DNA of 64,000 bases from Nitrososphaeria archaeon (GTDB lineage: Archaea > Thermoproteota > Nitrososphaeria > JACIWG01), in NCBI GenBank assembly GCA_029776065.1, contig JARVJP010000009.1:196514-260513 (forward strand), given 5' to 3'. The notes under the pieces were generated by a model. That model did not search any database. It was not told the origin of the DNA and saw nothing but the letters and a program-made list of their open reading frames with translations. The position numbers and the translations under genes are program-made. How positions within the stretch are numbered: position 1 is the first letter of the stretch; each line of letters opens with the position of its first letter. Shown here in pieces: positions 4,621 to 61,054 of this stretch.

Positions 4621-4723
4621 GCCGGGGTGCCTGAGTGGCCAAAAGGGCCGGCCTCGAGATCTCCTTTACAAGATAGCCGGTAACGGCTCTACCGTTCCAG
4701 GGGTTCAAATCCCCTCCCCGGCG
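4621..4723 (+). tRNA. tRNA-Ser(CGA) with a ~16-nt intron in the anticodon loop
   Basis: Acceptor GCCGGGG/CCCCGGC. T-arm AGGGG-TTCAAAT-CCCCT. Long variable arm (ACGG..CCGT). Anticodon stem CCGGC/GCCGG interrupted after CUCGAG by atctcctttacaagat. Confidence 0.7.
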
Positions 4724-47317: not shown

Positions 47318-47438
47318 ATCCCCAGAAATCCTATCAATTAAAAGTACTAAGAGAGCAATTTATAATAGGATCAGTAAATTTTAAAGTACTAAATCTTAGA
47401 CATTATATCATTGTGTCGTCACTATAAAGAGATTGAAA

Positions 47439-47513
47439 TGCGACCGCCGGGATTTGAACCCGGGTCAGAAGCGTGGCAGGCTCCCGTCCTAGACCAGACT
47501 AGACTACGGTCGC
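47439..47513 (-). tRNA. tRNA-Gly(GCC)
   Basis: Minus strand: acceptor GCGACCG/CGGUCGC. Anticodon stem GGAGC/GCUUC with loop CUGCCAC. T-arm CCGGG-UUCAAAU-CCCGG. Confidence 0.7.
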
Positions 47514-48201
47514 ATCAACTTGTTTTATGTAGATGCTTGATGTACCATAAAACTGTCAGATGGCTATCTTTAAGTTTTTCTCCTTAAATTTAAAAGACGT
47601 GATAATTATGCTATCTTATCGTAACCTTGGATTAAATTTATTTTGAACTTTATTAATAGCTTGATTTTGCGTTTGCATGCAAGCTTTTTTGGCAATAAAA
47701 GGTTTATATTATAGATAAAAGAAGGAATAATTCAAGTTAGTTGGCATAAGAGAAAACCGAATATTCTAATCAAGTTTATCATTGGATTAATATTTTTCTC
47801 TATGATTTTACTTCTAAACTCTCTCACTTCTAACACCTCTTTACATCAAACTTTCGGCTTCTACGCCTCCGATTTAGGTCCCTTTGCTATGTTACCTGAT
47901 CTATTCACATTAGCTGCATTGATTGTTCTTCTATGTTTGACCTTCAAATATTAAAATAAGAATGGTAGTGCACTATGTATATTATGCCTATCTGTTTACA
48001 AATTGCTCCATTTTCCTTATGATCATACTCTTTTATAGTAAGAATATCCAAAGTTATAATCTACTATTTAACTCCTATTCGATTTCCAAAGCAACTTCTC
48101 CAAAATCTATTACTTACTAGTGCCTTCCATATGTGTTTAAACTTAATAACCGATTTAAAATAAAAGTTTTAAACTAAGCAACTATACAGCCCTTTTGTTA
48201 A

Positions 48202-48276
48202 GGGCCGGTAGTACAGGTTGGTAGTTATGCTCCCTTGGCATGGGAGAGGTCGTGGGTTCGAGTCCCACCCGGTCCA
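48202..48276 (+). tRNA. tRNA-Ala(GGC)
   Basis: Acceptor GGGCCGG/CCGGTCC with the G3:U70 wobble (Ala identity). Anticodon stem CTCCC/GGGAG with loop TTGGCAT. T-arm GTGGG-TTCGAGT-CCCAC. Confidence 0.65.
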
Positions 48277-48354
48277 CCTTTGCGATAAAGAATTCTATTT
48301 TAAAGAAATGCTCAACGAAAATGATTAAATGGATTAGAGATAATTTACATAAGA

Positions 48355-48984
48355 TTATGTGTAAATCAATGAAATGTACTGTCTTAAACTCGGTTGATTG
48401 TTTTCTATTTCTTTTATAAATTTGTTAAATTTAAAAGCATGAGTAATTCTGAAGATAGCAAGTTTCCTATTAAGTTTCTTTTCTAATTCTTCATCACGAT
48501 TTGATATAATTTTAAATCTGTCATAGACAACAAGCATCTTGCTCAGTTTTAGATATATATCCCTCCTAACAGAATAAATTCTATTAAGAAACTGGTTCCT
48601 ATACTGTTCGTTATCTAATAATTTAGCCAATTCCATGTCGCCCCTTATTGGAGGTGGTATCTCGTTGTCATAAAATCTCTTTATTGAGTCGAAATGGAAA
48701 TTAAAGACATTTTTTGTCTCATTAAGATAACTTATTGAAAATTTAAAAATGAGAAAAAGCCAATACTTTTCTGGTGCGTCACATTTGTCAAGGAATTCCT
48801 CTGATATCACCCTCTCATAAGTCAATAAAAGTTTATCTGGATCTTTTTGGAAATCTTCTAATAATTCTTCCAAGTTTTTTTGCACCGCCATCCAAAGCTT
48901 AGGTCTTTTTAAAACAAACTTTTTGTAAAGATCTATATGCAAGCCTTTTTCTTCAAACTCATTTTTTCGGTCCTTCTTAGACAT
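48355..48984 (-). CDS. Hypothetical protein
   Basis: 209-aa ORF with no recognisable motif. Lies between tRNA-Ala and the element boundary repeat. Confidence 0.35.
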   Translation of the reverse strand: MSKKDRKNEFEEKGLHIDLYKKFVLKRPKLWMAVQKNLEELLEDFQKDPDKLLLTYERVISEEFLDKCDAPEKYWLFLIFKFSISYLNETKNVFNFHFDSIKRFYDNEIPPPIRGDMELAKLLDNEQYRNQFLNRIYSVRRDIYLKLSKMLVVYDRFKIISNRDEELEKKLNRKLAIFRITHAFKFNKFIKEIENNQPSLRQYISLIYT

Positions 48985-49182: not shown

Positions 49183-49197
49183 TGGGGCTAGTGGGAC
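49183..49197 (+). repeat. 15-bp direct repeat tggggctagtgggac (attR-like; copy of the tRNA-Trp 3' end)
   Basis: Exact 15-nt match to 59561-59575, which is the 3'-terminal 15 nt of tRNA-Trp. Confidence 0.7.
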
Positions 49198-49390
49198 CTA
49201 TACCAAAAAGGGTTCAAGTACGCTTTTCAGCTCTGAGATCTTTTATTAGACATCATCTAGCTATCTTTGATAACCCTTACAAGCACGAGAACTTTTATCA
49301 CTATCCTTTATTCTAATGTTTATTTTGATCGTGGTACTTAAAAGGTTTTTAAGTATGTTTGAAATAGAAATATAAAGGTGGAAAATAGAA

Positions 49391-50815
49391 GTGTTTTACG
49401 GTGGTGAAGTGTTTTACGGTGGTCAGCAAAAAACGCTTATTGGTGCAACAAATCCAGAGGAGGAATATATAGAACTAATTACTAAAGACTACAGTTTTCA
49501 GGAGGCTTTTGATGCTCTAGATAGAATAGACTGGGATTTTAAAGATTTTACAACCCAATATCTTACACATACATTCCATTCATACCCTGCTAGGTTCATA
49601 CCTCAAATACCTCTAACATTCATTAAACTATTCACAAAGGAGAAAGAAATTGTTCTAGACCCTATGTGTGGAAGTGGAACTACATTAGTGGAAGCCTTTT
49701 TGAACAATAGACATTCAATTGGTAATGACCTTAATCCACTTGCAACTTTAATAACTAAAGTAAAGACTACTTTGATCAGTGAAGATGAGTTCAGATATTT
49801 AGATAAAAGATTATCAGTTATGAAACATTACTTAGACCTAGATTACGGAAGGATTAATGAAAGAATTAATAATTTACCAAGTAGAAAAATAAGCAAGATA
49901 TTTAACAGAGTTATAATCTCAAAATTAGAAAGTATTCGTGAAACTTTGTTAGAAATTAGAGAAGAAGGATACAACGATTTATTTGATTTTGGAAGAGTTG
50001 CTTTATCTTCAGCTATCTGGTCATTAGTGGAAAATGGTGGAGGAATAGACATCGATATGATTTTCCTAAAAAAGGTAAAATCTATGCAGAATGAGATTAT
50101 GGAAATGAATAGGATTATTAAAGTCATTCCAACAGTAAAAGTGATTTGCGGAGATTCAAGGAAATTAGATGTAGACACTAATTTAACAGATTTAATAATA
50201 ACGTCTCCTCCTTATGTAAACGCTCTTGATTATTATAGAGTTCATATGTACAACATGCTTTGGCTCGGCATGGACTTTGACTTGTTTAGAAAACACGAAA
50301 TAGGAGGACATTCCCATTTTATTAATAATAGGTTTAGACTACTTTCAGAATATTTGGGCGACATGTTACGTTCGTTGATTGAGATGAATAGAGTTTTGAA
50401 AAAAAATAAATTGTGCGTAATCGTTGTCGGAAATTCAAGCTTAGAATACGAATTGATTGAAAGTCATAAGTTTTTTGCAGAAATGGGTGAAAAAATAGGA
50501 TTTAAGCCATTAAGAACAATTTTTAGAAATATTGACATAACAAAGAAATATTCAAGCACAGACATAGGAAAAATTAATGATGAATACATCCTTATTATGC
50601 AAAAAATAAATGATGCCCAGGTTACTGCGAAAAATGACAATTTTATTTCCGATATTGTAAGAGAAGAAATGATAAAATTTAGAGAACGAATAAAGGAACA
50701 TCAGGGTACTTCTATTAAAGGTAGGAAACCAACTAGAGAAAGATTATTGAAGAACGTCGATAAAATCAACGAAGCCATAGAAAAAATACCTGAAGACACA
50801 AGAATAAAGGAGTAA
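49391..50815 (+). CDS. DNA methyltransferase (N4-cytosine / N6-adenine amino-MTase family; SPPY motif)
   Basis: Motif X/I …FHSYPARFIPQIP…VLDPMCGSGTTLVEA…. Motif IV …IITSPPYVNALDYY…. Confidence 0.75.
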   Translation: MFYGGEVFYGGQQKTLIGATNPEEEYIELITKDYSFQEAFDALDRIDWDFKDFTTQYLTHTFHSYPARFIPQIPLTFIKLFTKEKEIVLDPMCGSGTTLVEAFLNNRHSIGNDLNPLATLITKVKTTLISEDEFRYLDKRLSVMKHYLDLDYGRINERINNLPSRKISKIFNRVIISKLESIRETLLEIREEGYNDLFDFGRVALSSAIWSLVENGGGIDIDMIFLKKVKSMQNEIMEMNRIIKVIPTVKVICGDSRKLDVDTNLTDLIITSPPYVNALDYYRVHMYNMLWLGMDFDLFRKHEIGGHSHFINNRFRLLSEYLGDMLRSLIEMNRVLKKNKLCVIVVGNSSLEYELIESHKFFAEMGEKIGFKPLRTIFRNIDITKKYSSTDIGKINDEYILIMQKINDAQVTAKNDNFISDIVREEMIKFRERIKEHQGTSIKGRKPTRERLLKNVDKINEAIEKIPEDTRIKE

Positions 50816-50821
50816 AACGTA

Positions 50822-51796
50822 ATGAAAGAATTTATTGGTAAAATAATATATTCAATTCTTAAAGGTCAAGACTATAGAACCTATGTTCTTGCGATAATAA
50901 ACAAAAGATTTGTCGATAAAACCCAAGAGTTAATTTCTGAAATCTATGAATATAAACAAAAAGGTGATAATTGGTTTGAAAAACTCTTGGATGACACCTT
51001 TAAAAAGAGGGGGAAGGAGAATAAATTTAGGCTTCTCTGGTTTGGTGGTTTAAACGATAAGACTGTAAAAAACATGACTGGAGGGACATCAGAAAAAGAA
51101 GTGTGTCTCGATTTAGGTAAGAAAAATATGAAGGCTTTAAGACTTTTGTTAGAAGAAGCAGAGCGCCGTGAGAACAATTTCAGTATTAGAATAATAATTA
51201 AAAAAGATCAAAATCAAATCGAATTAGATCATGTTGAAAGTCTATTTTTTATTAATATTATTTCAGCGATGAAATTAACAATTCAAGGAGGAGCTTGGAG
51301 TGAGGTAGGTAAACAAACTGAAAAGTGTCTACTTTTTGTTATATTTAATTTATTGGAAATTCCAAAAGAACACTATATTTTAACAACTGATGAGATGAAG
51401 AAAAAAGGGTTAATTGGGAATAGAGAAATTGATGCATTAGTTTTTACTAAAAACAAAGAGCCTTTAACCATTGAGTTAAAACTACTTGGAATAGGAAACC
51501 CAGAAATAGGCGATGAAGCGCTTGCTAGGAAAGTGAATTTATTCCTTATAGATAGACTCACAGACATGATGAAAAAAGAATCTGAAAAAATAGGAGTCAA
51601 GGTGATCGAGTTCAGACAAGAAAATTCATTAATGGAAATATTCAATTTTTTCAAGTTAAAAAATGTAGACTGTAAACTACCAGAGCAACTTACATCAAAA
51701 AAATTAGAAAGTCGAATAAACGAAATAATAATGGAATGGGGAGAAGAATCAGAAGATTTGAAAGTTATTAAGAAATTAAGAGACTGGACAAAATGA
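50822..51796 (+). CDS. Putative restriction endonuclease partner of the MTase (PD-(D/E)xK-like)
   Basis: Starts 7 nt after the MTase stop. Contains …EIDALVFTKNKEPLTIELKLLG… (D…ExK spacing compatible with a PD-(D/E)xK core). Confidence 0.4.
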   Translation: MKEFIGKIIYSILKGQDYRTYVLAIINKRFVDKTQELISEIYEYKQKGDNWFEKLLDDTFKKRGKENKFRLLWFGGLNDKTVKNMTGGTSEKEVCLDLGKKNMKALRLLLEEAERRENNFSIRIIIKKDQNQIELDHVESLFFINIISAMKLTIQGGAWSEVGKQTEKCLLFVIFNLLEIPKEHYILTTDEMKKKGLIGNREIDALVFTKNKEPLTIELKLLGIGNPEIGDEALARKVNLFLIDRLTDMMKKESEKIGVKVIEFRQENSLMEIFNFFKLKNVDCKLPEQLTSKKLESRINEIIMEWGEESEDLKVIKKLRDWTK

Positions 51797-52440
51797 TATT
51801 AACAAAGAGCTTTTTGCATAGATCAATTCCTAATTCAGGATACCAACATTTGCGAATTCTAATATCATTTTTTCCATAGCTTTTTTAAGTTCTGAGAACG
51901 CGGAATCTAACTGGCCATTCTTATTCTTTAAGAAATCCTCGTATGGATAGACCCAACAAACATCGTTCTTCATAAAAAGACTCTCAAGAGCAGTTTCTAG
52001 ATTGTTGTAGAGGGCCGTAGACTTTTTCTATTAAATTAATATTATTTTTAAAATTCTTAAGCTTAAATATAGAGAACATCAGTTTTATAGGTAAAATTAT
52101 TGGTAGCTACAAACTACTTTAGGAAATGAGATCAAAAGAATAAATGGCTCAACCACGGCATGGCTACTAAGCTTTAAAACACCCCAACAATATTTCTTTA
52201 TTATATACTTGTTCTAAAAATATAGGTTTTGACCAAAAAATGCTACTTATATTTAAACTTTTCGGTTGTTGGTTTAACTTAATAGAATAAGTTCAACCGA
52301 CATGAGAGCAAAGAGGTGAAAGTTCTTTTGTTGGAGTCAAATTTTGCTCCTTAACATCTTCCTATTATCCTTTTTAACTATTTTCTAATTTTTGGAAATT
52401 GTTTATATGCTACATACGACTTAACTTGTCATGGTATTGA

Positions 52441-52923
52441 ATGACTGATAACATGTTGTTGGGGCAAGCTGGAGTATATTTTGTAGCAGGTGAACTATCG
52501 AGACGAGGTTATATCGCATTAGTCACTACAAGGAATACAAAATCATACGATATATTGGCATATAATCCAGCCGCAAAAAGAAACTTGCAGTTGCAGATCA
52601 AAAGCACAAAGCAAAGACACAAAGACAGTGATAATGACGACTATATAGTATTAACAACCAATCAAGATGCTTTAGAAGAAAAACTACAAAGCATTGAAAG
52701 TTATCATGTGTTTGTCTACTTTCCTAAAGGAGGCCATCCAAGATATTTTGTTACTCCACCAAAAGAGCTACAAGATATCGTTAGGGAAGCTTGGAATGAC
52801 TACATAGAACATACAAAACATAGAAAGGGAATAGAGGATATTAAGAAGGCACAAAATCCTATAGGACCATGGATTGGGCAATTAAAGAAGTACGAAAATA
52901 GGTGGGACTTATTAGAAACCTGA
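52441..52923 (+). CDS. PD-(D/E)xK-fold nuclease-like protein (YraN/Hjc-like motif arrangement)
   Basis: …GQAGVYFVAGELSRRGYIALV…YDILAYN…LQLQIKS… (G-x-x-G-E…D…Q-x-K pattern). Confidence 0.4.
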   Translation: MTDNMLLGQAGVYFVAGELSRRGYIALVTTRNTKSYDILAYNPAAKRNLQLQIKSTKQRHKDSDNDDYIVLTTNQDALEEKLQSIESYHVFVYFPKGGHPRYFVTPPKELQDIVREAWNDYIEHTKHRKGIEDIKKAQNPIGPWIGQLKKYENRWDLLET

Positions 52924-53049
52924 CAAATTTTGTCCTTGGATTTGATTATGGACTGCTGAATATGACTTTCTTAAAGAATGAATTGCATTGTTTCATCCAA
53001 GATTTTGATCCCCCTTCATAAGACTGTGAATGTGCCAAAAAATAATATT

Positions 53050-54090
53050 TCAACTTCTGTATCTCGTTCCACCCCCAATTCCTTCACAAACCTTGTCACT
53101 ATCATTTGATAATGTCAATTTCATATTTTCTTCGAGATGTTTTAGAATGGATTCTTCACTTCTTTCAGGAAACAATTCATTAAGGTATTCTAGGTAATCA
53201 CCAAAGCCTAATGTGTAAAGTAAAACTGTTTTAGGAATTTTACTTCTACGTTTGAGATACTTGTTATATAATCTTACGTTTCGCTTCGAACAAAGGAATT
53301 TTTTTACTTCTGATAAACTTCCGAACTCTCCTTGTTCTAAACCCTCTGCTTCTGTTTTTATGCTAACAATGCTTTTTATGAGTATTCTAAATTTTCTTGC
53401 GGCCTCAATGAAGATCATCTCTCGAGGTATCGCTATGTTGTGATATCGTCTCATGAGGTCTATATGGGTTGAATGAAGAACGAGTTGGTACATTTGCCTC
53501 AATTTCTCATTATTCTTTATTATATATGCGGAACGATTGTATTTGAATAGCTGACGCTTGTAATCCTTAATTAATTTTCGTTCCTTTTCCCTAAAGGATA
53601 ATAGAACTTGAATTTCGCACATTCTGAGAAGAAAACCCACTACTCTAGTAAAAGCTAGATTGGGGTATTTGTTATTTTTCATTAATTCTAATTTATATTT
53701 TTTGAACATCGTCCTTATATCAAAATCCTCCCGTTTTGAAACAACTATAAGCCATCTTGGTGATGGAGATATTTCAGGATTTTCATCTTGTTTGAATTGC
53801 CCTGCTTCTATTCTACCAATGATTCTTTCTACTACTTCACTAAAGAAACTTTCTAAGTCTTTATAAAAGATGATTTTAGCACTCAACGGAAGTGCAAAAT
53901 ATCTTCTTGTTTTTATATCTCTCATTATTAGATTCTTATTCTGCAGACGTTTTAGACCCTCAGACAAGACATCAGTTGAAAGCCCTGTTCTATTTAACAA
54001 TTCTTTGAACCTCAACGGTTCTTTGGCGGCAAAAAGCTCTTCTAGTATCTTCTTCTCACTGCCAATAATTAACTTTTTTTTAGTTGGCAT
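53050..54090 (-). CDS. Hypothetical protein with N-terminal winged helix (element cargo)
   Basis: The internal Met (MPTKKKLIIGSEKKILEELF…LKRLQNKNLIMRDIKTRRYFALP) is preferred. The ORF-track start at 54228 adds 46 poorly coding residues. Confidence 0.4.
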   Translation of the reverse strand: MPTKKKLIIGSEKKILEELFAAKEPLRFKELLNRTGLSTDVLSEGLKRLQNKNLIMRDIKTRRYFALPLSAKIIFYKDLESFFSEVVERIIGRIEAGQFKQDENPEISPSPRWLIVVSKREDFDIRTMFKKYKLELMKNNKYPNLAFTRVVGFLLRMCEIQVLLSFREKERKLIKDYKRQLFKYNRSAYIIKNNEKLRQMYQLVLHSTHIDLMRRYHNIAIPREMIFIEAARKFRILIKSIVSIKTEAEGLEQGEFGSLSEVKKFLCSKRNVRLYNKYLKRRSKIPKTVLLYTLGFGDYLEYLNELFPERSEESILKHLEENMKLTLSNDSDKVCEGIGGGTRYRS

Positions 54091-54416
54091 TATCCAAGTA
54101 ACTTGGAAAATCGCATATAAACTTTGTATCCTTTGTCGCCTTGGAGACAGGTGAAACCTGATGCAATTAGACACTATTCTTAAAGAAGGAAAAAACATGG
54201 CATGCATAGATTTATGTTGTTCTTGCATGTTGCAAAGGATAAGGGATGTTACTACTGAGTTTTATCTTATAGAACGCTCTCATGTAAAAAATCATAATTT
54301 GTATTATGATATCAAACTACATGTTCCGTATATTATATTATGTATTATGATATCAAAATATAATAATAAGATATCAAGATATCAAACTGCATATTTTTCT
54401 TTAGGTTGTTTGGAAG

Positions 54417-54998
54417 GTGGTCTATCCTTTGGTTAAGAAGCCTGTTTTTGTTAGGATAGACCAAGAACTGTTAAAAAAGATGAGAGCAGAAGCTTTTAGG
54501 CAATATGGTAAGCTTAAAGGTTTAGCTTTAGTCTTTGAAGATGCTTTTAGAATGTATTTGGCCTCTAGGCCTGCAACATACACCGACATCATGATCCTTA
54601 CAAAAAGCACGAAAAAGAAGATCGACTATTTGATAGCCTTTTTAAAAGACCCAGAAAAAGCGCAAGTGCAATATAAGCTAGATGAGCTTAAAGAATTGAT
54701 AGGTTCACTCTTGCAAGTTGAAGATGAGAGAACCAAAATCAAATACTTAAAAAGCTTAGTAGCACAAAAGATCTTAGAAATTCACCCAGGAAACGAATAT
54801 ATAATAACCAACAAAGTCTATCCTCTACCCCAAGAAAGCCAATATTACTTGGACTCATTAAAGAAAAATGTCGACCAGCATCCCATTGTCTCCAAGAGCA
54901 CTTCTTTAGCCAAAGAACCTATCATAGAAGAGTTTAGACCTGCGTTCGACATGTTGGCAAAACAACTATCTAAGGAGGCAGGAGACCATAATGGCTAA
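54417..54998 (+). CDS. Ribbon-helix-helix (CopG/Arc-like) domain protein with unknown C-terminal extension
   Basis: N-terminus …KKPVFVRIDQELLKKMRAEAFRQYGKLKGLALVFEDAFRMYL… has the RHH beta-alpha-alpha pattern. Confidence 0.45.
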   Translation: MVYPLVKKPVFVRIDQELLKKMRAEAFRQYGKLKGLALVFEDAFRMYLASRPATYTDIMILTKSTKKKIDYLIAFLKDPEKAQVQYKLDELKELIGSLLQVEDERTKIKYLKSLVAQKILEIHPGNEYIITNKVYPLPQESQYYLDSLKKNVDQHPIVSKSTSLAKEPIIEEFRPAFDMLAKQLSKEAGDHNG

Positions 54999-55164
54999 GA
55001 CTGTTGATATTTCCGAATTGAAGAAGTTCGTCATAGAAAACATGCCCAGAGACTCTAAACTAAGAGAGCTAATATTATGTGAAAAGGATACTATGACGGT
55101 GGAGGACTTCTTATCCAAGTCAGACCTATGGTTCAAACTGCTCAAGATAGAATTCTCTAAATAA
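54991..55164 (+). CDS. Small hypothetical protein (57 aa)
   Basis: ATG overlaps the upstream stop (ATGGCTAA). Strong TAAGGAGGCAGGAG Shine-Dalgarno upstream. Below the ORF-track size cut-off. Confidence 0.35.
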   Translation: MAKTVDISELKKFVIENMPRDSKLRELILCEKDTMTVEDFLSKSDLWFKLLKIEFSK

Positions 55165-55215
55165 AGATTATTATAACCTTAAGTTACAATAAGATTCTAG
55201 AGTTGCCATTCACTA

Positions 55216-55792
55216 ATGCAGAAGCCCTATTTTTTCAAAGCTTTTATAAACTCGCAGGGCAATAATCACATTATGCCGTTTGGTAGAAATTGGAGTGAAG
55301 AGTTAGTTGCTGAATGGCTTTCACTTGACGGGTATCTTGTTGAAATAGGTCTACCAGTTGGTTCAGGAACTTCAGGTGGTAGAAAAGAAGCTGATGTTAT
55401 TGGAGCAAAGGTAATAAACAACAATCTGGAAATTATGCATGTAGAAGTAGGTTTTTTTACCTCTAAATCTCTATGCAAATTTTGAAATGATATGCAACAA
55501 GTTTAATCAAGACACTACTAATTTTATTAGAAACCATTTTAGTAAACAAATGGGTATGAATGCTTCTAATTCGACCTATAAAAAGTATTATGTCGGTATT
55601 TATTGCCCCAGTAAGCAGATTGAGCAATTAAGGCAGAAATTGGAAGATAAAGGAATAGTACTTCTAATGTTACCTGATCTTTTAGATATAATAGTAAGAA
55701 AACTCTCGAATTCATCAGCAGGCACATCACCAGAAGGCCTTTGGCTCATAAAAATGTTGGAAAACATGATATGGTGGAGGGCCATCAAATAG
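55216..55792 (+). CDS. Nuclease-like protein apparently split into two adjacent ORFs (55216-55485 and 55487-55792)
   Basis: The first ORF (…WSEELVAEWLSLDGYLVEIGLPVG…GGRKEADVIGAKV…) looks like a PD-(D/E)xK/Hjc-like N-terminal half. The second continues in a different frame after a stop. Confidence 0.3.
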
Positions 55793-56107
55793 AGACCAGT
55801 TTACTATTCCTTATTAGAGTAATATTATCTATGAATAATTAGTTCGATGTTCTGTTCAGTTTCACCTTTGAGCTTCCTCTTTAAGCTTCCTTTCGAACTC
55901 TTTCCCCAACTCTTTTTACCTTTTTTCAATCCGTGGAAATTGTAATGCGAACTAGCCCTAGGTCAAAAATCATTTTAAAGGAAGCAGCAACCACCACTTT
56001 ATGTGCTATATTGCAATCTAGTACATCGCTCTTTGTGAACCATTCTGGGTCGCTTTATAAATTGTGTAGAGATTTACCTTCATCAAATAAGGGATGAAAT
56101 TTTCTTC

Positions 56108-56323
56108 TTACAAGTTCCTAATGTATAGACCTATAACAATAAATGTACTAATAATTATGATAACTAAAGCTACATCAGCAAAAATTACCAGTAGGTCTCG
56201 TAAACCTGGTAGTAATATATTCAGTAGTTCCCCAATTGGTCTTCCTATGATCCAAATCAGCGAAAGTGAGAAGAAGATAGCTACAGAAAGCCCACTTAAA
56301 ACTATTTGGACAAGTTCAACCAT
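56108..56323 (-). CDS. Small hypothetical membrane protein (2 TM)
   Basis: 71 aa and hydrophobic. Immediately downstream of the 118-aa membrane ORF on the same strand. Confidence 0.35.
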   Translation of the reverse strand: MVELVQIVLSGLSVAIFFSLSLIWIIGRPIGELLNILLPGLRDLLVIFADVALVIIIISTFIVIGLYIRNL

Positions 56324-56329
56324 CCTACT

Positions 56330-56686
56330 TCACCATTCACTTCCTTGTTCTAAAAGAAGTTGCTTTTGTTCTATTCGGACAGTTGATGCATTATTTGCCT
56401 TAGCCACCTGCAATGCTTTCTCAACCAAGCTTACTGGAAGATCAAGATATAATAGACGTTCTTTATCTTGTGTTTCCTCTTGCTGGCTAATTTGTGAACC
56501 TACTATCCTGTAAGACCAAAGTAAAGTACCGACAACCATGGCGGGGTAAAATATCACAAGACCTAAAGCGAAAGCAATACCAGTAGAATACATTCCGATT
56601 GGATTAAAACCAAATAGCTTGCCTATGGGATCAGCTAACCAAACTGAAACCAAGATTAATGTACAGAAGAAATTTTTGAAGACCAC
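56330..56686 (-). CDS. Hypothetical membrane protein
   Basis: 118 aa. Three hydrophobic segments then a charged tail. Confidence 0.4.
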   Translation of the reverse strand: MVFKNFFCTLILVSVWLADPIGKLFGFNPIGMYSTGIAFALGLVIFYPAMVVGTLLWSYRIVGSQISQQEETQDKERLLYLDLPVSLVEKALQVAKANNASTVRIEQKQLLLEQGSEW

Positions 56687-56698
56687 AGAATGCCCAAA

Positions 56699-57751
56699 TT
56701 ATGCGTTTATGGCATCCAGTAAGTTATTGAAGGCTTTAATGAACAGGTCTATTTCATTATCTGTCAAGTCTCCTTCACGAGTACTTATAGCTGGCTGTTT
56801 TAGCCTGTCATATTTGCTTTCTAAGTCACTGACTTTTATTATTTCTTCCCTGAATCTGTCGAGAGCTTCTCTTGGCACTTCTTTTCTTGGCTCCATAAAA
56901 TTCTTTAGAATCACTAAACCGTTAGGCCATAGTGTTAGGGGACAGAACCTTCCCTTTCCTGTTACCACATAATAACAGAACGCCTGTGGTCTAGCCTTCC
57001 ACTCGTGTTTCTTTTCTGCAGCAAGCTGTTTCAGACGCTGGAAAAGTATTCTTCCAGGTGTATCGCACTTTTTCAAGAACGCTTCCTCGCTTATTGGCGC
57101 TATTTTTTCCATATCCTCCCTTCCTTCATCTTTCTTTTCAGGTGGGGCAAATGATGGTGTTCCCCTTATCATGTAAGCTATTCTACCATCTTCTATATTC
57201 ATATATTTCTCAACTATTAATGATATTACTTCGTACCCTAATGTGGTTATCCAAGTTCTAAAGTCAGACGGCTCGCTATCTATAGGAATCACTATCTTCG
57301 GCTTATCCTCTAAAATTCTTTCCACAACCTCATAAAGTCTAAGCTCGGGCATCCCATCTTCTATCAACTTCCTCTTCAAAGCCTCTTTTTTCTCAATCAA
57401 GTCTAAAGTGGTTCGCTTAATTTTTTGCTTAGTATCCTTGTTTTCAATAGCCACTATCTGCTTACTAACTTGTGATGCTATATGACTCCATAACCCATGT
57501 TCTGCAAGCTCTACTTCTACTATATACCAGCATTTGCTTGAAAAATCTATAACAATTGCTTCTGGAACTGTACCATAACCGCCTGAAGTTTGAATGATCT
57601 TTTGCGGAATATAAACAATGTCCTTGTTGAATATAGTTTCATGATGACTGTTGATTAGGGATTCTAGTTCCTGTTCGTCATCAAACTCTTTTTTTACAAA
57701 AACCTTTGAATCCACTATAATCTTCATATCAAGAAAACTACGTGACACCAT
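56699..57751 (-). CDS. Hypothetical protein (element cargo; possible nuclease-like N-terminal core)
   Basis: 350 aa. …AIVIDFSSKCWYIVEVELAEH… is reminiscent of a PD-(D/E)xK/DUF-type core, but the assignment is weak. Confidence 0.3.
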   Translation of the reverse strand: MVSRSFLDMKIIVDSKVFVKKEFDDEQELESLINSHHETIFNKDIVYIPQKIIQTSGGYGTVPEAIVIDFSSKCWYIVEVELAEHGLWSHIASQVSKQIVAIENKDTKQKIKRTTLDLIEKKEALKRKLIEDGMPELRLYEVVERILEDKPKIVIPIDSEPSDFRTWITTLGYEVISLIVEKYMNIEDGRIAYMIRGTPSFAPPEKKDEGREDMEKIAPISEEAFLKKCDTPGRILFQRLKQLAAEKKHEWKARPQAFCYYVVTGKGRFCPLTLWPNGLVILKNFMEPRKEVPREALDRFREEIIKVSDLESKYDRLKQPAISTREGDLTDNEIDLFIKAFNNLLDAINA

Positions 57752-58227
57752 ATAATAAATATTGTTCTATAAACTCGTTAGGGTCATATTTTACAAAACT
57801 TTTTTAGGTTTTAGAGGAGTTTCCTATCTTCAATAGTTTGAGCTGGTTTTTGCTTATTAGACAAGTTTAACCATTTCCTTGAACGAATGGGGATAGAATC
57901 GCATAGGGTACTGTATAGATTTTATTCTAAGGTTTATGACAACATAGGAGGAGTAGATTTCTACCCTTTTGATTATCTCGGTCGCCCACCTGACGTTGTA
58001 TCATAAGCTCTCCCTTCCTCTTGTCTATGATAAATCCAGCTCTATTTCCCAAGTTAGTTCAAAACAAACTTTCTAATAAACAGACGATCATAAGATTTGA
58101 TGATAGTAAAGTATAGAAATTGGTAAGGATTTCTTGAGAATAATTAAACAAGAGAGAAGTAATAATATCTACAGTAAAGTGTTTAAACTGCTTACGTAAC
58201 TAAAGGGTTGTGGGCATCTTTCAATTT

Positions 58228-59553
58228 CTAAAATGGAATCTTTATTATTGCTCTGTCGTTGGGTAGTTGGGCTACGAACTCCCATCCCTGAGCTATATGG
58301 TGTTCTATATCGTTTATGCTTATGACCTTCTGTCTTGCGCCATTGTTGGCCATCGCGCCGAGCAGCTTGTTTCTCGCCATCTTGTGGAGGTCTTCGTCGC
58401 TTATCGAGGACAGGTCCATCTCGTCTACTTCGTCCTGTTTGAAGCCTGCTATCAGCAGCCACTGTTTCTTGAACGCCTCCTTCATCTTCTCCTCGCTTAC
58501 GGACTCTGCTCTCGTGGTCTGCAGGAACTCTTGTGACCTCCTATAGGCCTCCCTCATGTCCTCTACGACCTGCTCTGGTAGCCTCTGCTTGTTCGTCGTA
58601 TACCTGTTCTCGATGTCTCCTTTGTGGCCCATCCAGAACGTTCTATAGTCTCTCATGACTAGGCCCTTTGACTCTGCAAGCATAAGTTGGGTGTCGAAGT
58701 ATGATCTTAGCACGTAGGGCCTCCATGGAAAACCAGCCTTTCTGATCGCACCTCTTATTATGTCCCCTATGTTTATTGCCCGAATGAAGGGCTTCATCCT
58801 CTGCTTTGGTGTAATGATCGGAGACTCTTGAGTTAACGTTTCACCCTGCCGTATCCTATCCTCCAGATAATCCTTGAGATAATCACATCCCTCTTCACTC
58901 AAAAATGTGAAGTACTGGTGTCTGGCCTTACTCAGCTCCCTTCTCACAATAACCGTTGTTGGGATCTTCTTGAACTCGACCTTACCATCCTTTACCTCCA
59001 TCTCAGGGAAGTCTCTAACTCTTAATCCATTTTGGCCAAAGTAGTCTCCTAGAACCTCTATCCTAAGGCCTGAATGTGCAACTAGAACCGATGCTAACCT
59101 TGCCTTCTTGTCACCTGATAAGAATATCTTTCTCAGTTCCTCTCTCGTGGGAACTCTTTCATCTCTAAGAGATGGCGTATCCTGCGCACCCTTAACCTTC
59201 ACAGCAACCTTTAGCTCCCTCCTGTTGAAGGAAAGCCAAGAGCGAACCGCTTTCAACACGTTAACAACATAACTTCCAGCATAACCCCTTCCCTCCATCA
59301 AACCAACATAATCCATGACCAAACCTTGTAACCGATCATCATCCAATAACACGAGCTCCTTAGGCGACAAATGATTCAGAGCACAGAAACCCCCTAACCT
59401 CCTCAAACAAACATCCGCATTAACCCTAGAACCCCTCCCAAGGTTCTCATACCACCTCCTAACATTAATATCCTCCAAAAGAAAACCATACTTTAAAGCC
59501 ATACCATATCCTAACAAGCCTTTAAATAAAAACATATCGATACTTGAACCCAA
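58228..59553 (-). CDS. int: Tyrosine recombinase / integrase of the integrated element
   Basis: 441 aa. C-terminal catalytic region has …AHSGLRIEVL… (Arg I), …VLRSYFDTQL… (His/Arg II) and …MGHKGDIENRY (Tyr). Gene is markedly GC-rich. Start lies 8 nt from the tRNA-Trp 3' end. Confidence 0.8.
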   Translation of the reverse strand: MGSSIDMFLFKGLLGYGMALKYGFLLEDINVRRWYENLGRGSRVNADVCLRRLGGFCALNHLSPKELVLLDDDRLQGLVMDYVGLMEGRGYAGSYVVNVLKAVRSWLSFNRRELKVAVKVKGAQDTPSLRDERVPTREELRKIFLSGDKKARLASVLVAHSGLRIEVLGDYFGQNGLRVRDFPEMEVKDGKVEFKKIPTTVIVRRELSKARHQYFTFLSEEGCDYLKDYLEDRIRQGETLTQESPIITPKQRMKPFIRAINIGDIIRGAIRKAGFPWRPYVLRSYFDTQLMLAESKGLVMRDYRTFWMGHKGDIENRYTTNKQRLPEQVVEDMREAYRRSQEFLQTTRAESVSEEKMKEAFKKQWLLIAGFKQDEVDEMDLSSISDEDLHKMARNKLLGAMANNGARQKVISINDIEHHIAQGWEFVAQLPNDRAIIKIPF

Positions 59554-59560
59554 AACAAGG

Positions 59561-59693
59561 TGGGGCTAGTGGGACTTGAACCCACGGCTTACGGGTATCT
59601 TCACCCAGCTCCAAAGCTACATCATCCAAGGTAGTCAGCATACCCATATTTTGTTCTGGAGCCCGTTGTCCTTCCTTGCTGGACGATAGCCCC
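59561..59693 (-). tRNA. tRNA-Trp(CCA) with a ~60-nt intron in the anticodon loop
   Basis: Minus strand: acceptor GGGGCUA/UAGCCCC. D-arm GUCC-AGCAAGGAA-GGAC. Anticodon stem ACGGG … CCCGU with loop CUCCAG|intron|A. T-arm GUGGG-UUCAAGU-CCCAC. The intron contains AUGAUGU and CUGA box-like elements. Confidence 0.65.
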
Positions 59694-59935: not shown

Positions 59936-61054
59936 ATGCTCGGTCGAACTCTACAGCTTTTCCCTGTAGACCAATCACTTCTTCAGCAGATATTATCTTT
60001 AATCTTCTATGGTATATTTTTTCTTTACTTGTTTTTTGGCCAAAGTATCCAGACACAACGTGTCCTTTACTCACTATCTGGGGCGTTGAATAAGATAAAA
60101 GATGCAAGAGACAAGTCAACAAAGGAACTTCAAGAGTTTCTTCAAAAGAATGGGTATAAAGGGGACGCTACACCCCAGATTGACAAATTAATAGAGCATT
60201 TTACAATCACACCTGTTAGCATAGATCCTGCAGGACTTGTTAAGAAGATAGAGCACCTTCTAAGTGTTAGAGACGAAAGGGTTAGATACGAAGTTAAGAA
60301 GCTTTTGCCAGAAAAGGATTCTGTAACAACATCTATAATGGAGAACTTGCTAGAAATATCGACGACCCTTAACCTATACTATAAGGTTGTTCGTCATTAC
60401 TACCTTGTTGGAAAGAAAACCTCAAACTATTATCTCCTTCTTCAATTACAAATTATATTGCCTGACCTTTTAAGAGAAGTTGAAGCTTTATACTCAGCGG
60501 TTGAACCGATCAAGAGTGGTCAGCCAATAGGAGATGGAATCGGAGCTGTGGTGGCGGGGAAACTTATGCTAAACTCAGAGAAGAAACCAATCGCTCGTGA
60601 CACCATTTTTAGTGAAGTACCTTACAAAAATAGGAAACTTTATGTTATAAAGGCAGAAGGTCCTGCAGCAAATGTTGGTCAACCTGGTAACGCTATAGAA
60701 TCGCTTGTTAACAAATATGGTGTAAAGCCATCCACAATAATAATGATAGATGCTGCATTAAAGCTAGAAGGGGAAATGACTGGGGAGGTCGCTGAAGGCG
60801 TTGGTGCTGCAATCGGTGGAATTGGTGTTGACAAATATAAAATAGAGGAAATAGCCTCCTCTATGGGGATTCCCCTTTATGCTATTATTATCAAAGAATC
60901 TATAGTAGAAGCGATCACCGCCATGACTAAAGAAATAGCAGAAGCTGCATCCAAAGTTCAAAGTCGATTAGATGCCTTAATCGAATCAAATACAAAGGAG
61001 GGTGACATTGTAATGGTCGTTGGTGTTGGAAACACATTAGGAGTTGGACAATAA
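59936..61054 (+). CDS. Conserved archaeal membrane-anchored protein of unknown function (DUF1512-like)
   Basis: N-terminal TM helix, then a soluble domain with glycine-rich blocks (…GDGIGAVVAGKLM…GVGAAIGGIGVD…VVGVGNTLG). Confidence 0.45.
   Translation: MLGRTLQLFPVDQSLLQQILSLIFYGIFFLYLFFGQSIQTQRVLYSLSGALNKIKDARDKSTKELQEFLQKNGYKGDATPQIDKLIEHFTITPVSIDPAGLVKKIEHLLSVRDERVRYEVKKLLPEKDSVTTSIMENLLEISTTLNLYYKVVRHYYLVGKKTSNYYLLLQLQIILPDLLREVEALYSAVEPIKSGQPIGDGIGAVVAGKLMLNSEKKPIARDTIFSEVPYKNRKLYVIKAEGPAANVGQPGNAIESLVNKYGVKPSTIIMIDAALKLEGEMTGEVAEGVGAAIGGIGVDKYKIEEIASSMGIPLYAIIIKESIVEAITAMTKEIAEAASKVQSRLDALIESNTKEGDIVMVVGVGNTLGVGQ

What the first reader, a model, noticed from the sequence alone, without database searches (positions are those of the whole stretch)
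49183..59575. ~10.4 kb integrated element at tRNA-Trp bounded by a 15-bp direct repeat and carrying an integrase, an R-M module and several uncharacterised nuclease/wHTH/RHH genes
The 3'-terminal 15 nt of tRNA-Trp (tggggctagtgggac, 59561-59575) recur exactly at 49183-49197. An intact tyrosine integrase (58228-59553) begins 8 nt from the tRNA 3' end. It is conspicuously more GC-rich than the host. This is the standard signature of site-specific integration into a tRNA gene with reconstitution of its 3' end. The cargo, in order, is:
- an amino-MTase (49391-50815);
- a tightly coupled PD-(D/E)xK candidate (50822-51796);
- a YraN/Hjc-like nuclease-fold protein (52441-52923);
- a wHTH protein (53050-54090);
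- an RHH protein (54417-54998);
- a split nuclease-like ORF pair (55216-55792);
- two small membrane proteins (56108-56686);
- a 350-aa unknown (56699-57751).
Apart from the MTase and integrase, none of the cargo has a confident assignment. The clustering of nuclease folds with DNA-binding regulators in a mobile island is the context in which new defence systems are usually found.
Basis: partly seen in the sequence, partly recalled or inferred. Interest (0 to 1): 0.75.

Follow-up and report, generated by a model that had tools for sequence, protein, structure and literature searches.

The report
Integrated mobile island at tRNA-Trp
A 10.4-kb mobile DNA island, carrying its own integrase and a restriction-modification system, sits in the tRNA-Trp gene of a Nitrososphaeria archaeon; it is real and cleanly bounded, but it is an ordinary example of a known kind of archaeal element.

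Summary
The last 15 nt of an intron-containing tRNA-Trp (59561-59693, minus strand) recur exactly once, at 49183-49197. An intact tyrosine integrase lies directly downstream of the tRNA.

New support for the boundaries: a perfect 11-bp inverted repeat, GGGTTCAAGTA, sits just inside both att cores. It copies the tRNA's T-arm. The same T-arm-like motif follows the tRNA in 53 of 78 related loci.

The integrase is not split by integration and has the pNOB8-type signature. Its family is very large and 60-83% identical. In every locus where the upstream DNA could be read it lies 50-90 nt after a tRNA gene, at least 15 tRNA species in all.

The cargo is a CfrBI-family type II R-M pair, two PD-(D/E)xK-type proteins, a frameshifted gene, a wHTH protein and small membrane proteins. 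None matches a known defence system other than the R-M pair, and none recurs in related elements.

Only the integrase gene is GC-rich; the cargo matches the host.

Verdict: a cryptic integrated element of the kind already catalogued in Thaumarchaeota. It is a new member of a known kind and of low to moderate interest.

The parts
49183..49197 (.). attL core: the distal copy of the 15-bp direct repeat, identical to the 3' end of tRNA-Trp
   Evidence: One of only two matches in the window; chance expectation 0.04.
49210..49220 (+). Left inverted repeat GGGTTCAAGTA (T-arm-like), 12 nt inside attL; candidate integrase-binding site
   Evidence: One of two exact copies in the window. L096 and L069 have the same inverted copy at their far ends.
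49391..50815 (+). Type II amino-DNA methyltransferase (N6_N4_Mtase); the start lies within an exact 18-bp tandem duplication
   Evidence: Pfam PF01555, E = 1.2e-20; PADLOC MTase_II, E = 2e-43. Duplication at 49388-49423.
50822..51796 (+). CfrBI-family type II restriction endonuclease
   Evidence: Pfam PF09516 RE_CfrBI, E = 1.1e-104, 349.8 bits, full profile length; PADLOC REase_II, E = 6e-41.
52441..52923 (+). 160-aa stand-alone PD-(D/E)xK-like protein (D37 ... Q52-x-K54, an Mrr-like motif)
   Evidence: 801 cluster representatives at E < 1e-3. D37 is invariant and K54 nearly so. Members weakly hit PDDEXK_5, DUF4365 and Mrr_cat. No PADLOC family.
53050..54090 (-). 346-aa protein with an N-terminal winged helix-turn-helix; the remaining 280 aa are unknown
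   Evidence: Weak hits to HxlR, GntR, MarR and Lrs14 over residues 11-60 (E = 0.006-0.04).
54291..54395 (.). Repeated GATATCAA(A) boxes between the divergent wHTH gene and the RHH-like/57-aa operon; probable operator
54417..54998 (+). 193-aa protein with an RHH-like N-terminus (pattern only); overlaps the 57-aa gene by 8 nt
   Evidence: No profile or PDB hit. RHH-like proteins precede the 57-aa homologue in a few related loci (L045 and L059).
54991..55164 (+). 57-aa conserved partner of the integrase; candidate excision factor or regulator
   Evidence: The only gene family besides the integrase shared among related elements: 46 loci by clustering, and 24 of 29 loci with more than 6 kb of element side. 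No Pfam or PDB match.
55216..55792 (+). One gene of about 190 aa broken by a frameshift in the T7 run at 55452-55458
   Evidence: Reading the sequence. Identical in an independent assembly, L115. No family hit for the fused product.
56108..56686 (-). Two small predicted membrane proteins (118 aa and 71 aa) downstream of the 350-aa gene
   Evidence: Hydrophobic segments in the translations. No family hits.
56699..57727 (-). 342-aa protein: an N-terminal PD-(D/E)xK nuclease fold plus a C-terminal domain
58228..59502 (-). Intact tyrosine integrase (424 aa) with the pNOB8-type signature R...YxxR...H...Y and a conserved extension of about 120 aa after the catalytic Tyr
   Evidence: Pfam PF00589, E = 6e-5; NCBIfam XerA, E = 1e-6. 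A1 profile against P. abyssi XerA, E = 0.002. Alignment invariants. Not split by the att site.
59519..59551 (-). Spacer between tRNA and integrase: the right inverted repeat GGGTTCAAGTA (59541-59551), then a TATA-like box TTTTTATTTAAA ahead of the integrase ATG
   Evidence: The family consensus TTTGGGTTCAGAACC...TTATA is present in 53 of 78 loci against 0.9% background.
59561..59575 (.). attR core: the 3'-terminal 15 nt of tRNA-Trp
59561..59693 (-). Host tRNA-Trp (CCA) with an intron of about 59 nt; the integration target
   Evidence: Rfam tRNA, 51.2 bits. Orthologous tRNA with the same intron lies next to the 5S rRNA and the same genes in 8 related MAGs.

Best explanation
Window 49183-59575 is a cryptic integrated element of a Nitrososphaeria archaeon.

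**How it entered.** It entered by conservative site-specific recombination. The exchange was between a 15-bp core in its circular form (attP) and the identical last 15 nt of tRNA-Trp (attB). The enzyme was its own classical, pNOB8-type tyrosine integrase, whose gene is not split by integration. The mature tRNA sequence is unchanged; only the 3' trailer is replaced.

**Layout of attP (shown).** In attP the core is flanked by an 11-bp inverted repeat that copies the tRNA's T-arm.

**Recognition and retargeting (inferred).** These repeats, together with the T-arm in the tRNA gene, are inferred to be the integrase-binding sites. If so, near-identical integrases in this family could use many different tRNA genes simply by carrying a different core.

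**Regulation (inferred).** The integrase promoter, a TATA-like box, lies between the right repeat and the start codon, so integrase binding may also regulate its own gene. The 57-aa protein at 54991-55164 is the only other gene conserved across the family. It is inferred to be the excision or directionality factor, or a regulator. It is expressed from an operon with an RHH-like protein behind GATATCAA operator repeats.

**Cargo.** The rest is variable cargo. The CfrBI-family R-M pair protects the host from foreign DNA and also makes loss of the island costly (inferred from what is generally known of type II R-M systems). The other cargo is two nuclease-fold proteins of unknown role, a broken gene, a wHTH protein and two small membrane proteins.
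For: - Exact 15-bp direct repeat at the tRNA 3' end and 10.4 kb away, unique in the window.
- Perfect 11-bp inverted repeat just inside both cores, the only two exact copies in the window.
- The same arrangement in L096 (25-nt repeat, 5.6-kb element) and L069.
- The integrase is intact and keeps all family-invariant residues.
- A stop codon in the core prevents any reading across attP, so the gene is not split.
- In 84 related loci the integrase lies 50-90 nt downstream of a tRNA on the same strand, with at least 15 tRNA identities.
- A conserved T-arm-like motif follows the tRNA in 53 of 78 loci, against 0.9% background.
- Integrases about 80% identical use different tRNAs.
- The 57-aa gene is in 24 of 29 loci that hold more than 6 kb of element side; no other family is in more than 7 loci.
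- Seven of 8 related MAGs have tRNA-Trp in the same right-hand synteny without an integrase. One (L003) has an 83%-identical integrase at the same tRNA with different cargo, a type I HsdM.
- RE_CfrBI at E = 1e-104 next to an N6_N4 methyltransferase.
- There are no informative hits to virus protein families, no replication or conjugation domains, and no match in IMG/VR.
- This matches the published class of thaumarchaeal cryptic integrated elements: median att length 17 bp, tRNA targets and R-M cargo (PMC6563490).
Against: - No empty site with both flanks conserved was found. The left flank of the window is not syntenic with any relative, and the nearby tRNA-Gly/tRNA-Ala pair is inverted relative to relatives.
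- In most related loci no distal repeat was found within the 10 kb available. The att architecture therefore rests on three elements.
- The integrase falls below the curated Pfam and NCBIfam cut-offs, and its structure model is poor in the catalytic domain.
- The integrase gene and the cargo differ strongly in GC (0.47 against 0.34), so the island may be a mosaic rather than one coherent element.
- Binding of the integrase to the repeats and any role for the 57-aa protein are inferences only.
Confidence: 0.85

Rival explanations
1. The island is a mosaic. A recently arrived integrase module (roughly 54.4-59.6 kb: integrase, 57-aa gene and neighbours) landed at tRNA-Trp next to, or recombined with, an older resident segment of host-like composition carrying the R-M genes. 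On this reading the 10.4 kb did not arrive as one piece.
For: The integrase has GC 0.469 and GC3 0.55. The R-M genes have GC 0.30-0.32 and GC3 0.26. Genes from 54417 to 57751 are intermediate at 0.34-0.38. The sister integrase in L003 shows the same offset from its host, whereas in other loci integrase GC tracks the host. Cargo is entirely different between the window and L003.
Against: The left inverted repeat, identical to the right one, lies 12 nt from the distal core at 49210-49220, beyond the R-M genes. The present unit that the integrase would excise therefore includes them. No internal att-like site exists at up to 3 mismatches. Modular exchange of cargo is normal for such elements and does not contradict the main explanation.
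Confidence: 0.3
2. The element is a decayed, immobile remnant: a fixed genomic island whose integrase and att sites are relics.
For: One cargo gene is frameshifted. No replication, packaging or transfer genes were found. The region next to the island is rearranged. CCWWGG sites are not depleted in the window (29 against 35 expected).
Against: Both cores are identical at 15 of 15 positions, and both inverted repeats at 11 of 11. The integrase is full length with every family-invariant residue. The 57-aa partner is intact. The integrase's GC is not ameliorated, which argues for recent arrival.
Confidence: 0.12
3. The nuclease-fold and regulator genes (52441, 53050, 55216-55792 and 56699-56108) form one or more new anti-virus defence systems carried by the island.
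Against: No PADLOC family matches any of them. None recurs in the 84 related elements. Homologues of the 342-aa protein are single genes without conserved neighbours; one lies between archaellum and NurA-HerA-Mre11-Rad50 genes. Its putative active site reads E-x-E-L rather than (D/E)-x-K. One candidate is frameshifted. The PD-(D/E)xK fold is also common in repair and mobile-element functions.
Confidence: 0.15
4. It is a provirus or an integrated plasmid.
For: The wHTH protein next to repeated GATATCAA boxes could in principle be an initiator with iterons. The 160-aa protein weakly matches three PHROG families of unknown function.
Against: There are no capsid, portal, terminase, primase, helicase, Rep or conjugation domains in Pfam, PHROGs or NCBIfam. 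The integrase family is absent from 2.9 million IMG/VR contigs, whether searched with the protein or with the profile.
Confidence: 0.05

Closest known systems
Cryptic integrated elements (CIE) of Thaumarchaeota (Krupovic et al. 2019, PMC6563490)
   Same: Host phylum; integration into a tRNA gene, including intron-bearing ones; a short att site (15 bp here, published median 17 bp); a size of about 10 kb (published median 17 kb); the integrase as the only signature gene; cargo of R-M genes and RHH and wHTH regulators.
   Different: This element and its host MAG were not in that survey. The T-arm-like inverted repeats and the conserved 57-aa partner are not among the features I found in that paper. 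I read it only through term searches.
pNOB8-type (classical, type II) archaeal integrases (She et al.; reviewed in PMC8371274)
   Same: The integrase gene stays intact and lies immediately next to the reconstituted tRNA on the same strand. The catalytic signature is R...YxxR...Y.
   Different: The att core is 15 bp, against 40-50 bp in Sulfolobales. There is a conserved extension of about 120 aa after the catalytic tyrosine. The hosts are Nitrososphaeria and Bathyarchaeia. Direct sequence similarity to the pNOB8 integrase was not tested.
CfrBI type II restriction-modification system
   Same: The endonuclease matches RE_CfrBI over the whole profile. It is adjacent to and co-oriented with an N6/N4 amino-methyltransferase, 6 nt apart.
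   Different: Archaeal, and carried on a mobile element. The recognition sequence is unknown, and CCWWGG is not depleted in the window.
Tycheposons and other tRNA-targeting islands with a tyrosine recombinase next to the tRNA (Hackl et al.; the bioRxiv preprint 10.1101/2020.12.28.424599 was listed but not read, so this comparison rests on my own knowledge)
   Same: An integrase abutting a tRNA gene, highly variable cargo and several tRNA targets within one family.
   Different: Bacterial (Prochlorococcus), with a different recombinase lineage. No homology was tested.

Membership tests
tRNA-integrated element made by a tyrosine recombinase | Direct repeats at both ends, one of them being part of a tRNA gene | tested here: met
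   An exact 15-bp repeat at 49183-49197 and 59561-59575, the latter being the 3' end of tRNA-Trp.
tRNA-integrated element made by a tyrosine recombinase | An integrase gene inside the element, next to an att site | tested here: met
   Integrase at 58228-59502, 58 nt from attR.
tRNA-integrated element made by a tyrosine recombinase | An empty target site in related genomes | tested here: inconclusive
   Seven of 8 related MAGs have tRNA-Trp with conserved right-hand synteny and no integrase. Their left flanks differ from the window and from each other. The closest relative is only 83% identical in a flanking protein.
tRNA-integrated element made by a tyrosine recombinase | Excision to a circle (attP) and restoration of attB | not testable with these tools
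   This needs read data or PCR.
Tyrosine recombinase superfamily | Catalytic R, K, (H/Y)xxR, H/W and Y in order | tested here: met
   R147, K192, Y263-x-x-R266, H293 and Y301 are invariant in 39 sequences.
Tyrosine recombinase superfamily | A significant match to curated family models or the known fold | tested here: inconclusive
   PF00589 scores 23.3 bits against a cut-off of 27.1. NCBIfam XerA scores 28 against 220. The A1 profile matches PDB XerA at E = 0.002. The top 33 Foldseek hits are all Cre or Tn1549 integrase, but with E >= 0.02 on a model of pLDDT 62. Many homologues carry a precomputed PF00589 hit.
pNOB8-type (classical) archaeal integrase | The gene is not interrupted by integration; att lies outside the ORF | tested here: met
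   In the reconstructed circle, the reading frame upstream of the integrase is closed by the TAG inside the core.
pNOB8-type (classical) archaeal integrase | The R...YxxR...Y motif variant | tested here: met
   WRPYVLR is invariant. The motif definition is from PMC8371274.
SSV-type (suicidal) integrase | attP lies inside the integrase ORF, and the gene is split into N- and C-terminal parts on integration | tested here: not met
CfrBI-type type II R-M | An endonuclease of the RE_CfrBI family with an adjacent DNA methyltransferase | tested here: met
   PF09516 scores 349.8 bits against a cut-off of 25. PF01555 scores 74.9 bits against a cut-off of 26.7. The genes are 6 nt apart.
CfrBI-type type II R-M | Cleavage and methylation of CCWWGG | not testable with these tools
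   Only the site count is available: 29 observed against 35 expected.
Thaumarchaeal cryptic integrated element | Integrase and att sites present, but no hallmark genes of viruses, casposons or conjugative elements | tested here: met
   Pfam, PHROGs, NCBIfam and PADLOC scans. No IMG/VR match.
Known anti-phage defence systems other than R-M (PADLOC-DB) | A match of the cargo proteins to a system's protein models | tested here: not met
   Only MTase_II and REase_II match. The remainder give nothing, or E >= 0.003 to unrelated models.

The most novel reading that the evidence does not exclude
This integrase family, thousands of members in Nitrososphaeria, Bathyarchaeia and other Thermoproteota, may recognise a generic T-arm-shaped DNA motif. 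That motif is present in every tRNA gene and is copied as inverted repeats in the element's attP. If so, one almost unchanged enzyme could be retargeted to any tRNA gene by swapping a 15-25-bp core. The family-specific 57-aa protein would then be a new kind of excision or directionality factor. A second, less likely novel reading is that the island's orphan nuclease-fold genes are new defence genes.
Probability: 0.3. Interest if true: 0.55.

Novelty: new member of a known kind. Interest (0 to 1): 0.3.

Why it matters
For this genome, the result marks 10.4 kb as mobile DNA. It names the restriction system the host carries, and it flags tRNA-Trp as an integration site.

More broadly, the comparison shows that one tightly conserved integrase lineage, always paired with a small unknown protein and a T-arm-like DNA motif, is a major vehicle of variable genes in uncultured soil and sediment archaea. 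That gives a simple rule for finding such islands in MAGs: a tRNA, then the TTTGGGTTCAGAACC motif, then the integrase.

It also gives a testable idea of how integrases change tRNA targets.

The island itself does not change what is known about archaeal mobile elements.

Tried and rejected
- **SSV-type split integrase.** Rejected: there is no open frame across the reconstructed attP.
- **Internal att sites or tandem elements.** There is no further copy of the core at up to 3 mismatches.
- **Island extending to tRNA-Ala (48202-48278).** No family motif or repeat follows that tRNA. The 209-aa ORF between it and attL has no hits at all.
- **Empty-site search.** The single genome-collection scan, with the flanking 372-aa protein, gave 25 loci but none with both flanks conserved.
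- **Apparent 5-kb insertion in L002 relative to L001.** It is a LarBCE/CbiMQ metabolic cluster, not a mobile element.
- **Distal repeats in related loci.** Convincing only in L096 and L069.
- **The 57-aa protein.** The word-based homologue search found only the protein itself. A profile built from 21 translated homologues hit nothing in the PDB, and Pfam scans of the 21 members found nothing either.
- **Integrase structure.** The model was poor (pLDDT 62), because the alignment is too uniform.
- **RHH and the fused split gene.** No profile or PDB support. hhalign of the split gene and of the 350-aa family against the 160-aa family was not significant.
- **Bacterial promoter and terminator scan.** Uninformative for an archaeon.
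- **CCWWGG avoidance.** None.
- **Source look-up for the integrase.** P0001 was not on record. The source contig was found through P0121 instead.

Full report
**1. What the window is**

An archaeal RNase P RNA, a 5S rRNA and several tRNAs are present. The gene right of the finding (59936-61054) has its closest relatives, at 65-83% identity, in Nitrososphaeria MAGs. Two island proteins are recorded in NCBI as hypothetical proteins of a Nitrososphaeria archaeon MAG. The window is 100% identical to contig JAVZCQ010000001.1 of GCA_038874315.1.

**2. The observation**

ARAGORN does not report a tRNA-Trp. Rfam finds a tRNA on the minus strand at 59561-59693 (51 bits). It has anticodon CCA and an insertion of about 60 nt at the anticodon loop, that is, an intron. 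The same tRNA with the same intron lies beside the 5S rRNA and the same downstream genes in eight related MAGs.

The 15-mer TGGGGCTAGTGGGAC is the reverse complement of the tRNA's last 15 nt, ending at the discriminator base. It occurs exactly twice in the window, at 49183-49197 and 59561-59575. There are no further matches even at three mismatches. The listed ORFs are all present.

**3. Independent evidence for the boundaries**

Aligning the two junctions showed that the element side of each core carries the same 11-mer in opposite orientation. GGGTTCAAGTA lies at 49210-49220 (+), 12 nt from attL, and at 59541-59551 (-), 9 nt from attR. These are the only two exact copies in the window. The only close variant nearby is the T-arm of tRNA-Trp itself, GGGTTCAAGTC.

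In the reconstructed circular form the layout is inverted repeat, 12 nt, 15-bp core, 9 nt, inverted repeat. This is the general layout expected of a tyrosine-recombinase site, although the spacing is wide.

**4. The integrase**

The ORF can be extended to a TTG 8 nt from the tRNA. However, 120 listed homologues, all of similar length, and the alignment put the start at the ATG at 59502, giving 424 aa.

In the reconstructed circle, the frame upstream of the integrase is closed by the TAG inside the core. The gene is therefore not split by integration, which excludes the SSV type.

The alignment of 39 members shows invariant R147, K192, Y263-V-L-R266, H293 and Y301. This is the R...YxxR...Y variant that defines pNOB8-type integrases (definition in PMC8371274). 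About 120 conserved residues follow the catalytic tyrosine, which is unusual.

Curated models are hit only below their cut-offs: PF00589 at 23.3 bits against 27.1, and NCBIfam XerA at 28 against 220. A family profile finds P. abyssi XerA in the PDB at E = 0.002. The AlphaFold model is poor in the catalytic domain (pLDDT 62). Its best Foldseek matches are nevertheless all Cre or Tn1549 integrase, at non-significant E-values. I accept it as a tyrosine recombinase on the combined evidence.

**5. The integrase family and its architecture**

The family is very large: 2357 proteins passed E <= 0.001 among the 8000 candidates that were scored. It is also tight: the 120 best hits listed are 62-83% identical. 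The source names that are given are Bathyarchaeia/Bathyarchaeota, Nitrososphaeria/Nitrososphaerota or Thermoproteota. It is absent from IMG/VR viral contigs.

I collected 84 loci.

[quoted passage not shown] At least 15 different tRNA species are used.
- **Contig ends.** Many metagenome contigs begin at that tRNA. This is what population-level presence/absence of an element would produce.
- **Motif.** Directly after the tRNA there is a conserved motif with consensus TTTGGGTTCAGAACC. It is a palindrome that resembles a T-arm and is followed by a TTATA box. It is present at up to 3 mismatches in 53 of 78 loci, against 0.9% of random windows. The window and its sister locus L003 carry the variant GGGTT(C/T)AAGTA, which mimics the tRNA-Trp T-arm.
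- **Far ends.** In the two other elements whose distal repeat lies within reach, an inverted copy of their own motif sits 5-6 nt inside the distal repeat, as in the window. These are L096 (25-nt exact repeat, 5.6 kb) and L069 (24-nt imperfect repeat, about 3.5 kb).
- **Target switching.** Integrases above about 85% identity use isoacceptors of the same amino acid. Pairs at 78-83% identity use different tRNAs, for example Ile and Arg, Arg and Val, Val and Ile, and Arg and Ala.

From this I infer, but have not shown, two things. The enzyme reads the T-arm-like motif. The choice of tRNA is set by the short core carried in attP.

**6. The conserved partner**

I clustered all ORFs on the element side of the loci. 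Exactly one family recurs: the 57-aa ORF at 54991-55164, found in 46 loci. The next most frequent family is in 7 loci.

By profile search it is present in 24 of 29 loci that hold more than 6 kb of element side. It usually lies within 3 kb of the integrase and often converges on it.

It has no Pfam or PDB relative. In the window it overlaps the end of the RHH-like gene by 8 nt. That gene lies behind four GATATCAA boxes, which face the divergent wHTH gene.

A small, family-specific protein that always accompanies an integrase is most simply an excision/directionality factor or a regulator. This is inference.

**7. The cargo**

- **49391-50815** is an N6/N4 amino-methyltransferase.
- **50822-51796** matches RE_CfrBI end to end at E = 1e-104. 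The 'PD-(D/E)xK candidate' is therefore a known type II enzyme family.
- **52441-52923** belongs to a family of about 800 cluster representatives of stand-alone 150-170-aa proteins. D37 is invariant and K54 nearly invariant. Members weakly hit PDDEXK_5, DUF4365 and Mrr_cat.
- **55216-55485 and 55487-55792** are one gene interrupted in a T7 run. Removing one T fuses them. An independent assembly has the identical sequence. Neither this gene nor the RHH call could be confirmed by any profile.
- **PADLOC** recognises nothing but the R-M pair.
- **Other elements.** None of the cargo is shared with the other 84 elements. The sister element in L003 carries a type I HsdM instead.

**8. Composition**

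The island without the integrase has GC 0.337, identical to the rest of the window. The integrase gene has GC 0.469 and GC3 0.55. L003 shows the same offset. In 26 other loci integrase GC tracks the host.

The pattern suggests a recently imported integrase lineage with locally sourced cargo.

**9. Relatives and the empty site**

To the right of the tRNA, synteny is conserved in all eight relatives. To the left, nothing is shared with the window.

Seven relatives have no integrase at tRNA-Trp. In the closest (L007, 83% identity), ordinary transporter genes follow the tRNA. L003 has the 83%-identical integrase in the same place.

A tRNA-Gly/tRNA-Ala pair lies 0.9 kb left of attL. It is orthologous to a pair that lies near tRNA-Trp in four relatives, but it is inverted. 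Two tRNAs that lie between in those relatives are missing from the window.

The element is therefore variably present. A clean before-and-after comparison was not possible.

**10. Comparison with what is known**

Krupovic et al. (PMC6563490) describe 'cryptic integrated elements' as the main class of thaumarchaeal integrated elements. These have short att sites (median 17 bp) and tRNA targets, and the integrase is the only common gene. R-M systems and RHH and wHTH regulators are frequent cargo.

The present island fits that description in every respect tested. It is a new member of a known kind.

The family-level regularities are the T-arm-like inverted repeats, the 57-aa partner and the breadth of tRNA targets at high protein identity. 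I did not find them in the two papers I searched, but I did not read those papers in full.

**11. Verdict**

The finding is real, its boundaries are well supported and its mechanism is conventional. The suggestion of new defence systems is not supported by the available tests, though it is not excluded.

- Confidence in the main explanation: 0.85.
- Interest: 0.3.

Noticed in passing
L039, L044, L047, L054, L055, L058, L072, L075, L097, L105 and L106 (15-90 nt after the integrase stop codon): In about 12 of 77 related loci, the 3' part of a different tRNA (for example GTGGGTTCAAATCCCACCCCCCGCACCA) follows the integrase gene, and a conserved stretch follows that. It travels with the integrase whichever tRNA lies upstream. 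It is absent from the window and remains unexplained; it could be the fossil att site of an earlier target, or a sign of tandem elements.
   Followed up: partly
window 59601-59656 (minus strand), inside tRNA-Trp: The tRNA-Trp intron gives a weak Rfam hit to the C/D-box sRNA sR40 (17 bits, E = 0.29). It may encode a box C/D guide, as tRNA-Trp introns do in Euryarchaeota. Unverified.
   Followed up: no
window 4621-4723 (+): A second probable intron-containing tRNA, found by Rfam (44.9 bits) but not by ARAGORN.
   Followed up: no
window 49388-49423: An exact 18-bp tandem duplication (GAAGTGTTTTACGGTGGT, two copies) covers the start of the methyltransferase gene. It gives two alternative GTG starts and the N-terminus MFYGGEVFYGG.
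   Followed up: no
window 47438-48278, compared with L001, L002, L006 and L023: The tRNA-Gly(gcc)/tRNA-Ala(ggc) pair next to the island is 97-100% identical to a pair near tRNA-Trp in relatives, but it is inverted. The tRNA-Phe and tRNA-Ala(cgc) that lie between in those relatives are missing. This is a rearrangement adjacent to the integration site.
   Followed up: partly
window 58228-59502; L003 7062-8354: The integrase gene is far more GC-rich than both its host and its own cargo (0.47 against 0.34). This holds only in the Trp-targeting pair; elsewhere in the family integrase GC follows the host.
   Followed up: yes
L030-L109: Many of the metagenome contigs carrying this integrase start 90-340 nt upstream of it, so assemblies break at the target tRNA.
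   Followed up: partly
L002 2844-8571, compared with L001 7832-8650: A segment of about 5 kb present only in L002 between tRNA-Gly and tRNA-Phe encodes LarB/LarC/LarE-like and CbiM/CbiQ proteins. It is a variable metabolic cluster within the tRNA cluster, with no integrase.
   Followed up: yes
window 48355-48984 (-): A 209-aa ORF lies between tRNA-Ala and attL. It has no hit in Pfam, PHROGs or NCBIfam and no counterpart in the related loci. Whether it belongs to the host or to a mobile element is unknown.
   Followed up: partly
window, whole: CCWWGG, the CfrBI site, is not under-represented: 29 sites against 35 expected. Either the enzyme has another specificity or the system arrived recently.
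   Followed up: partly
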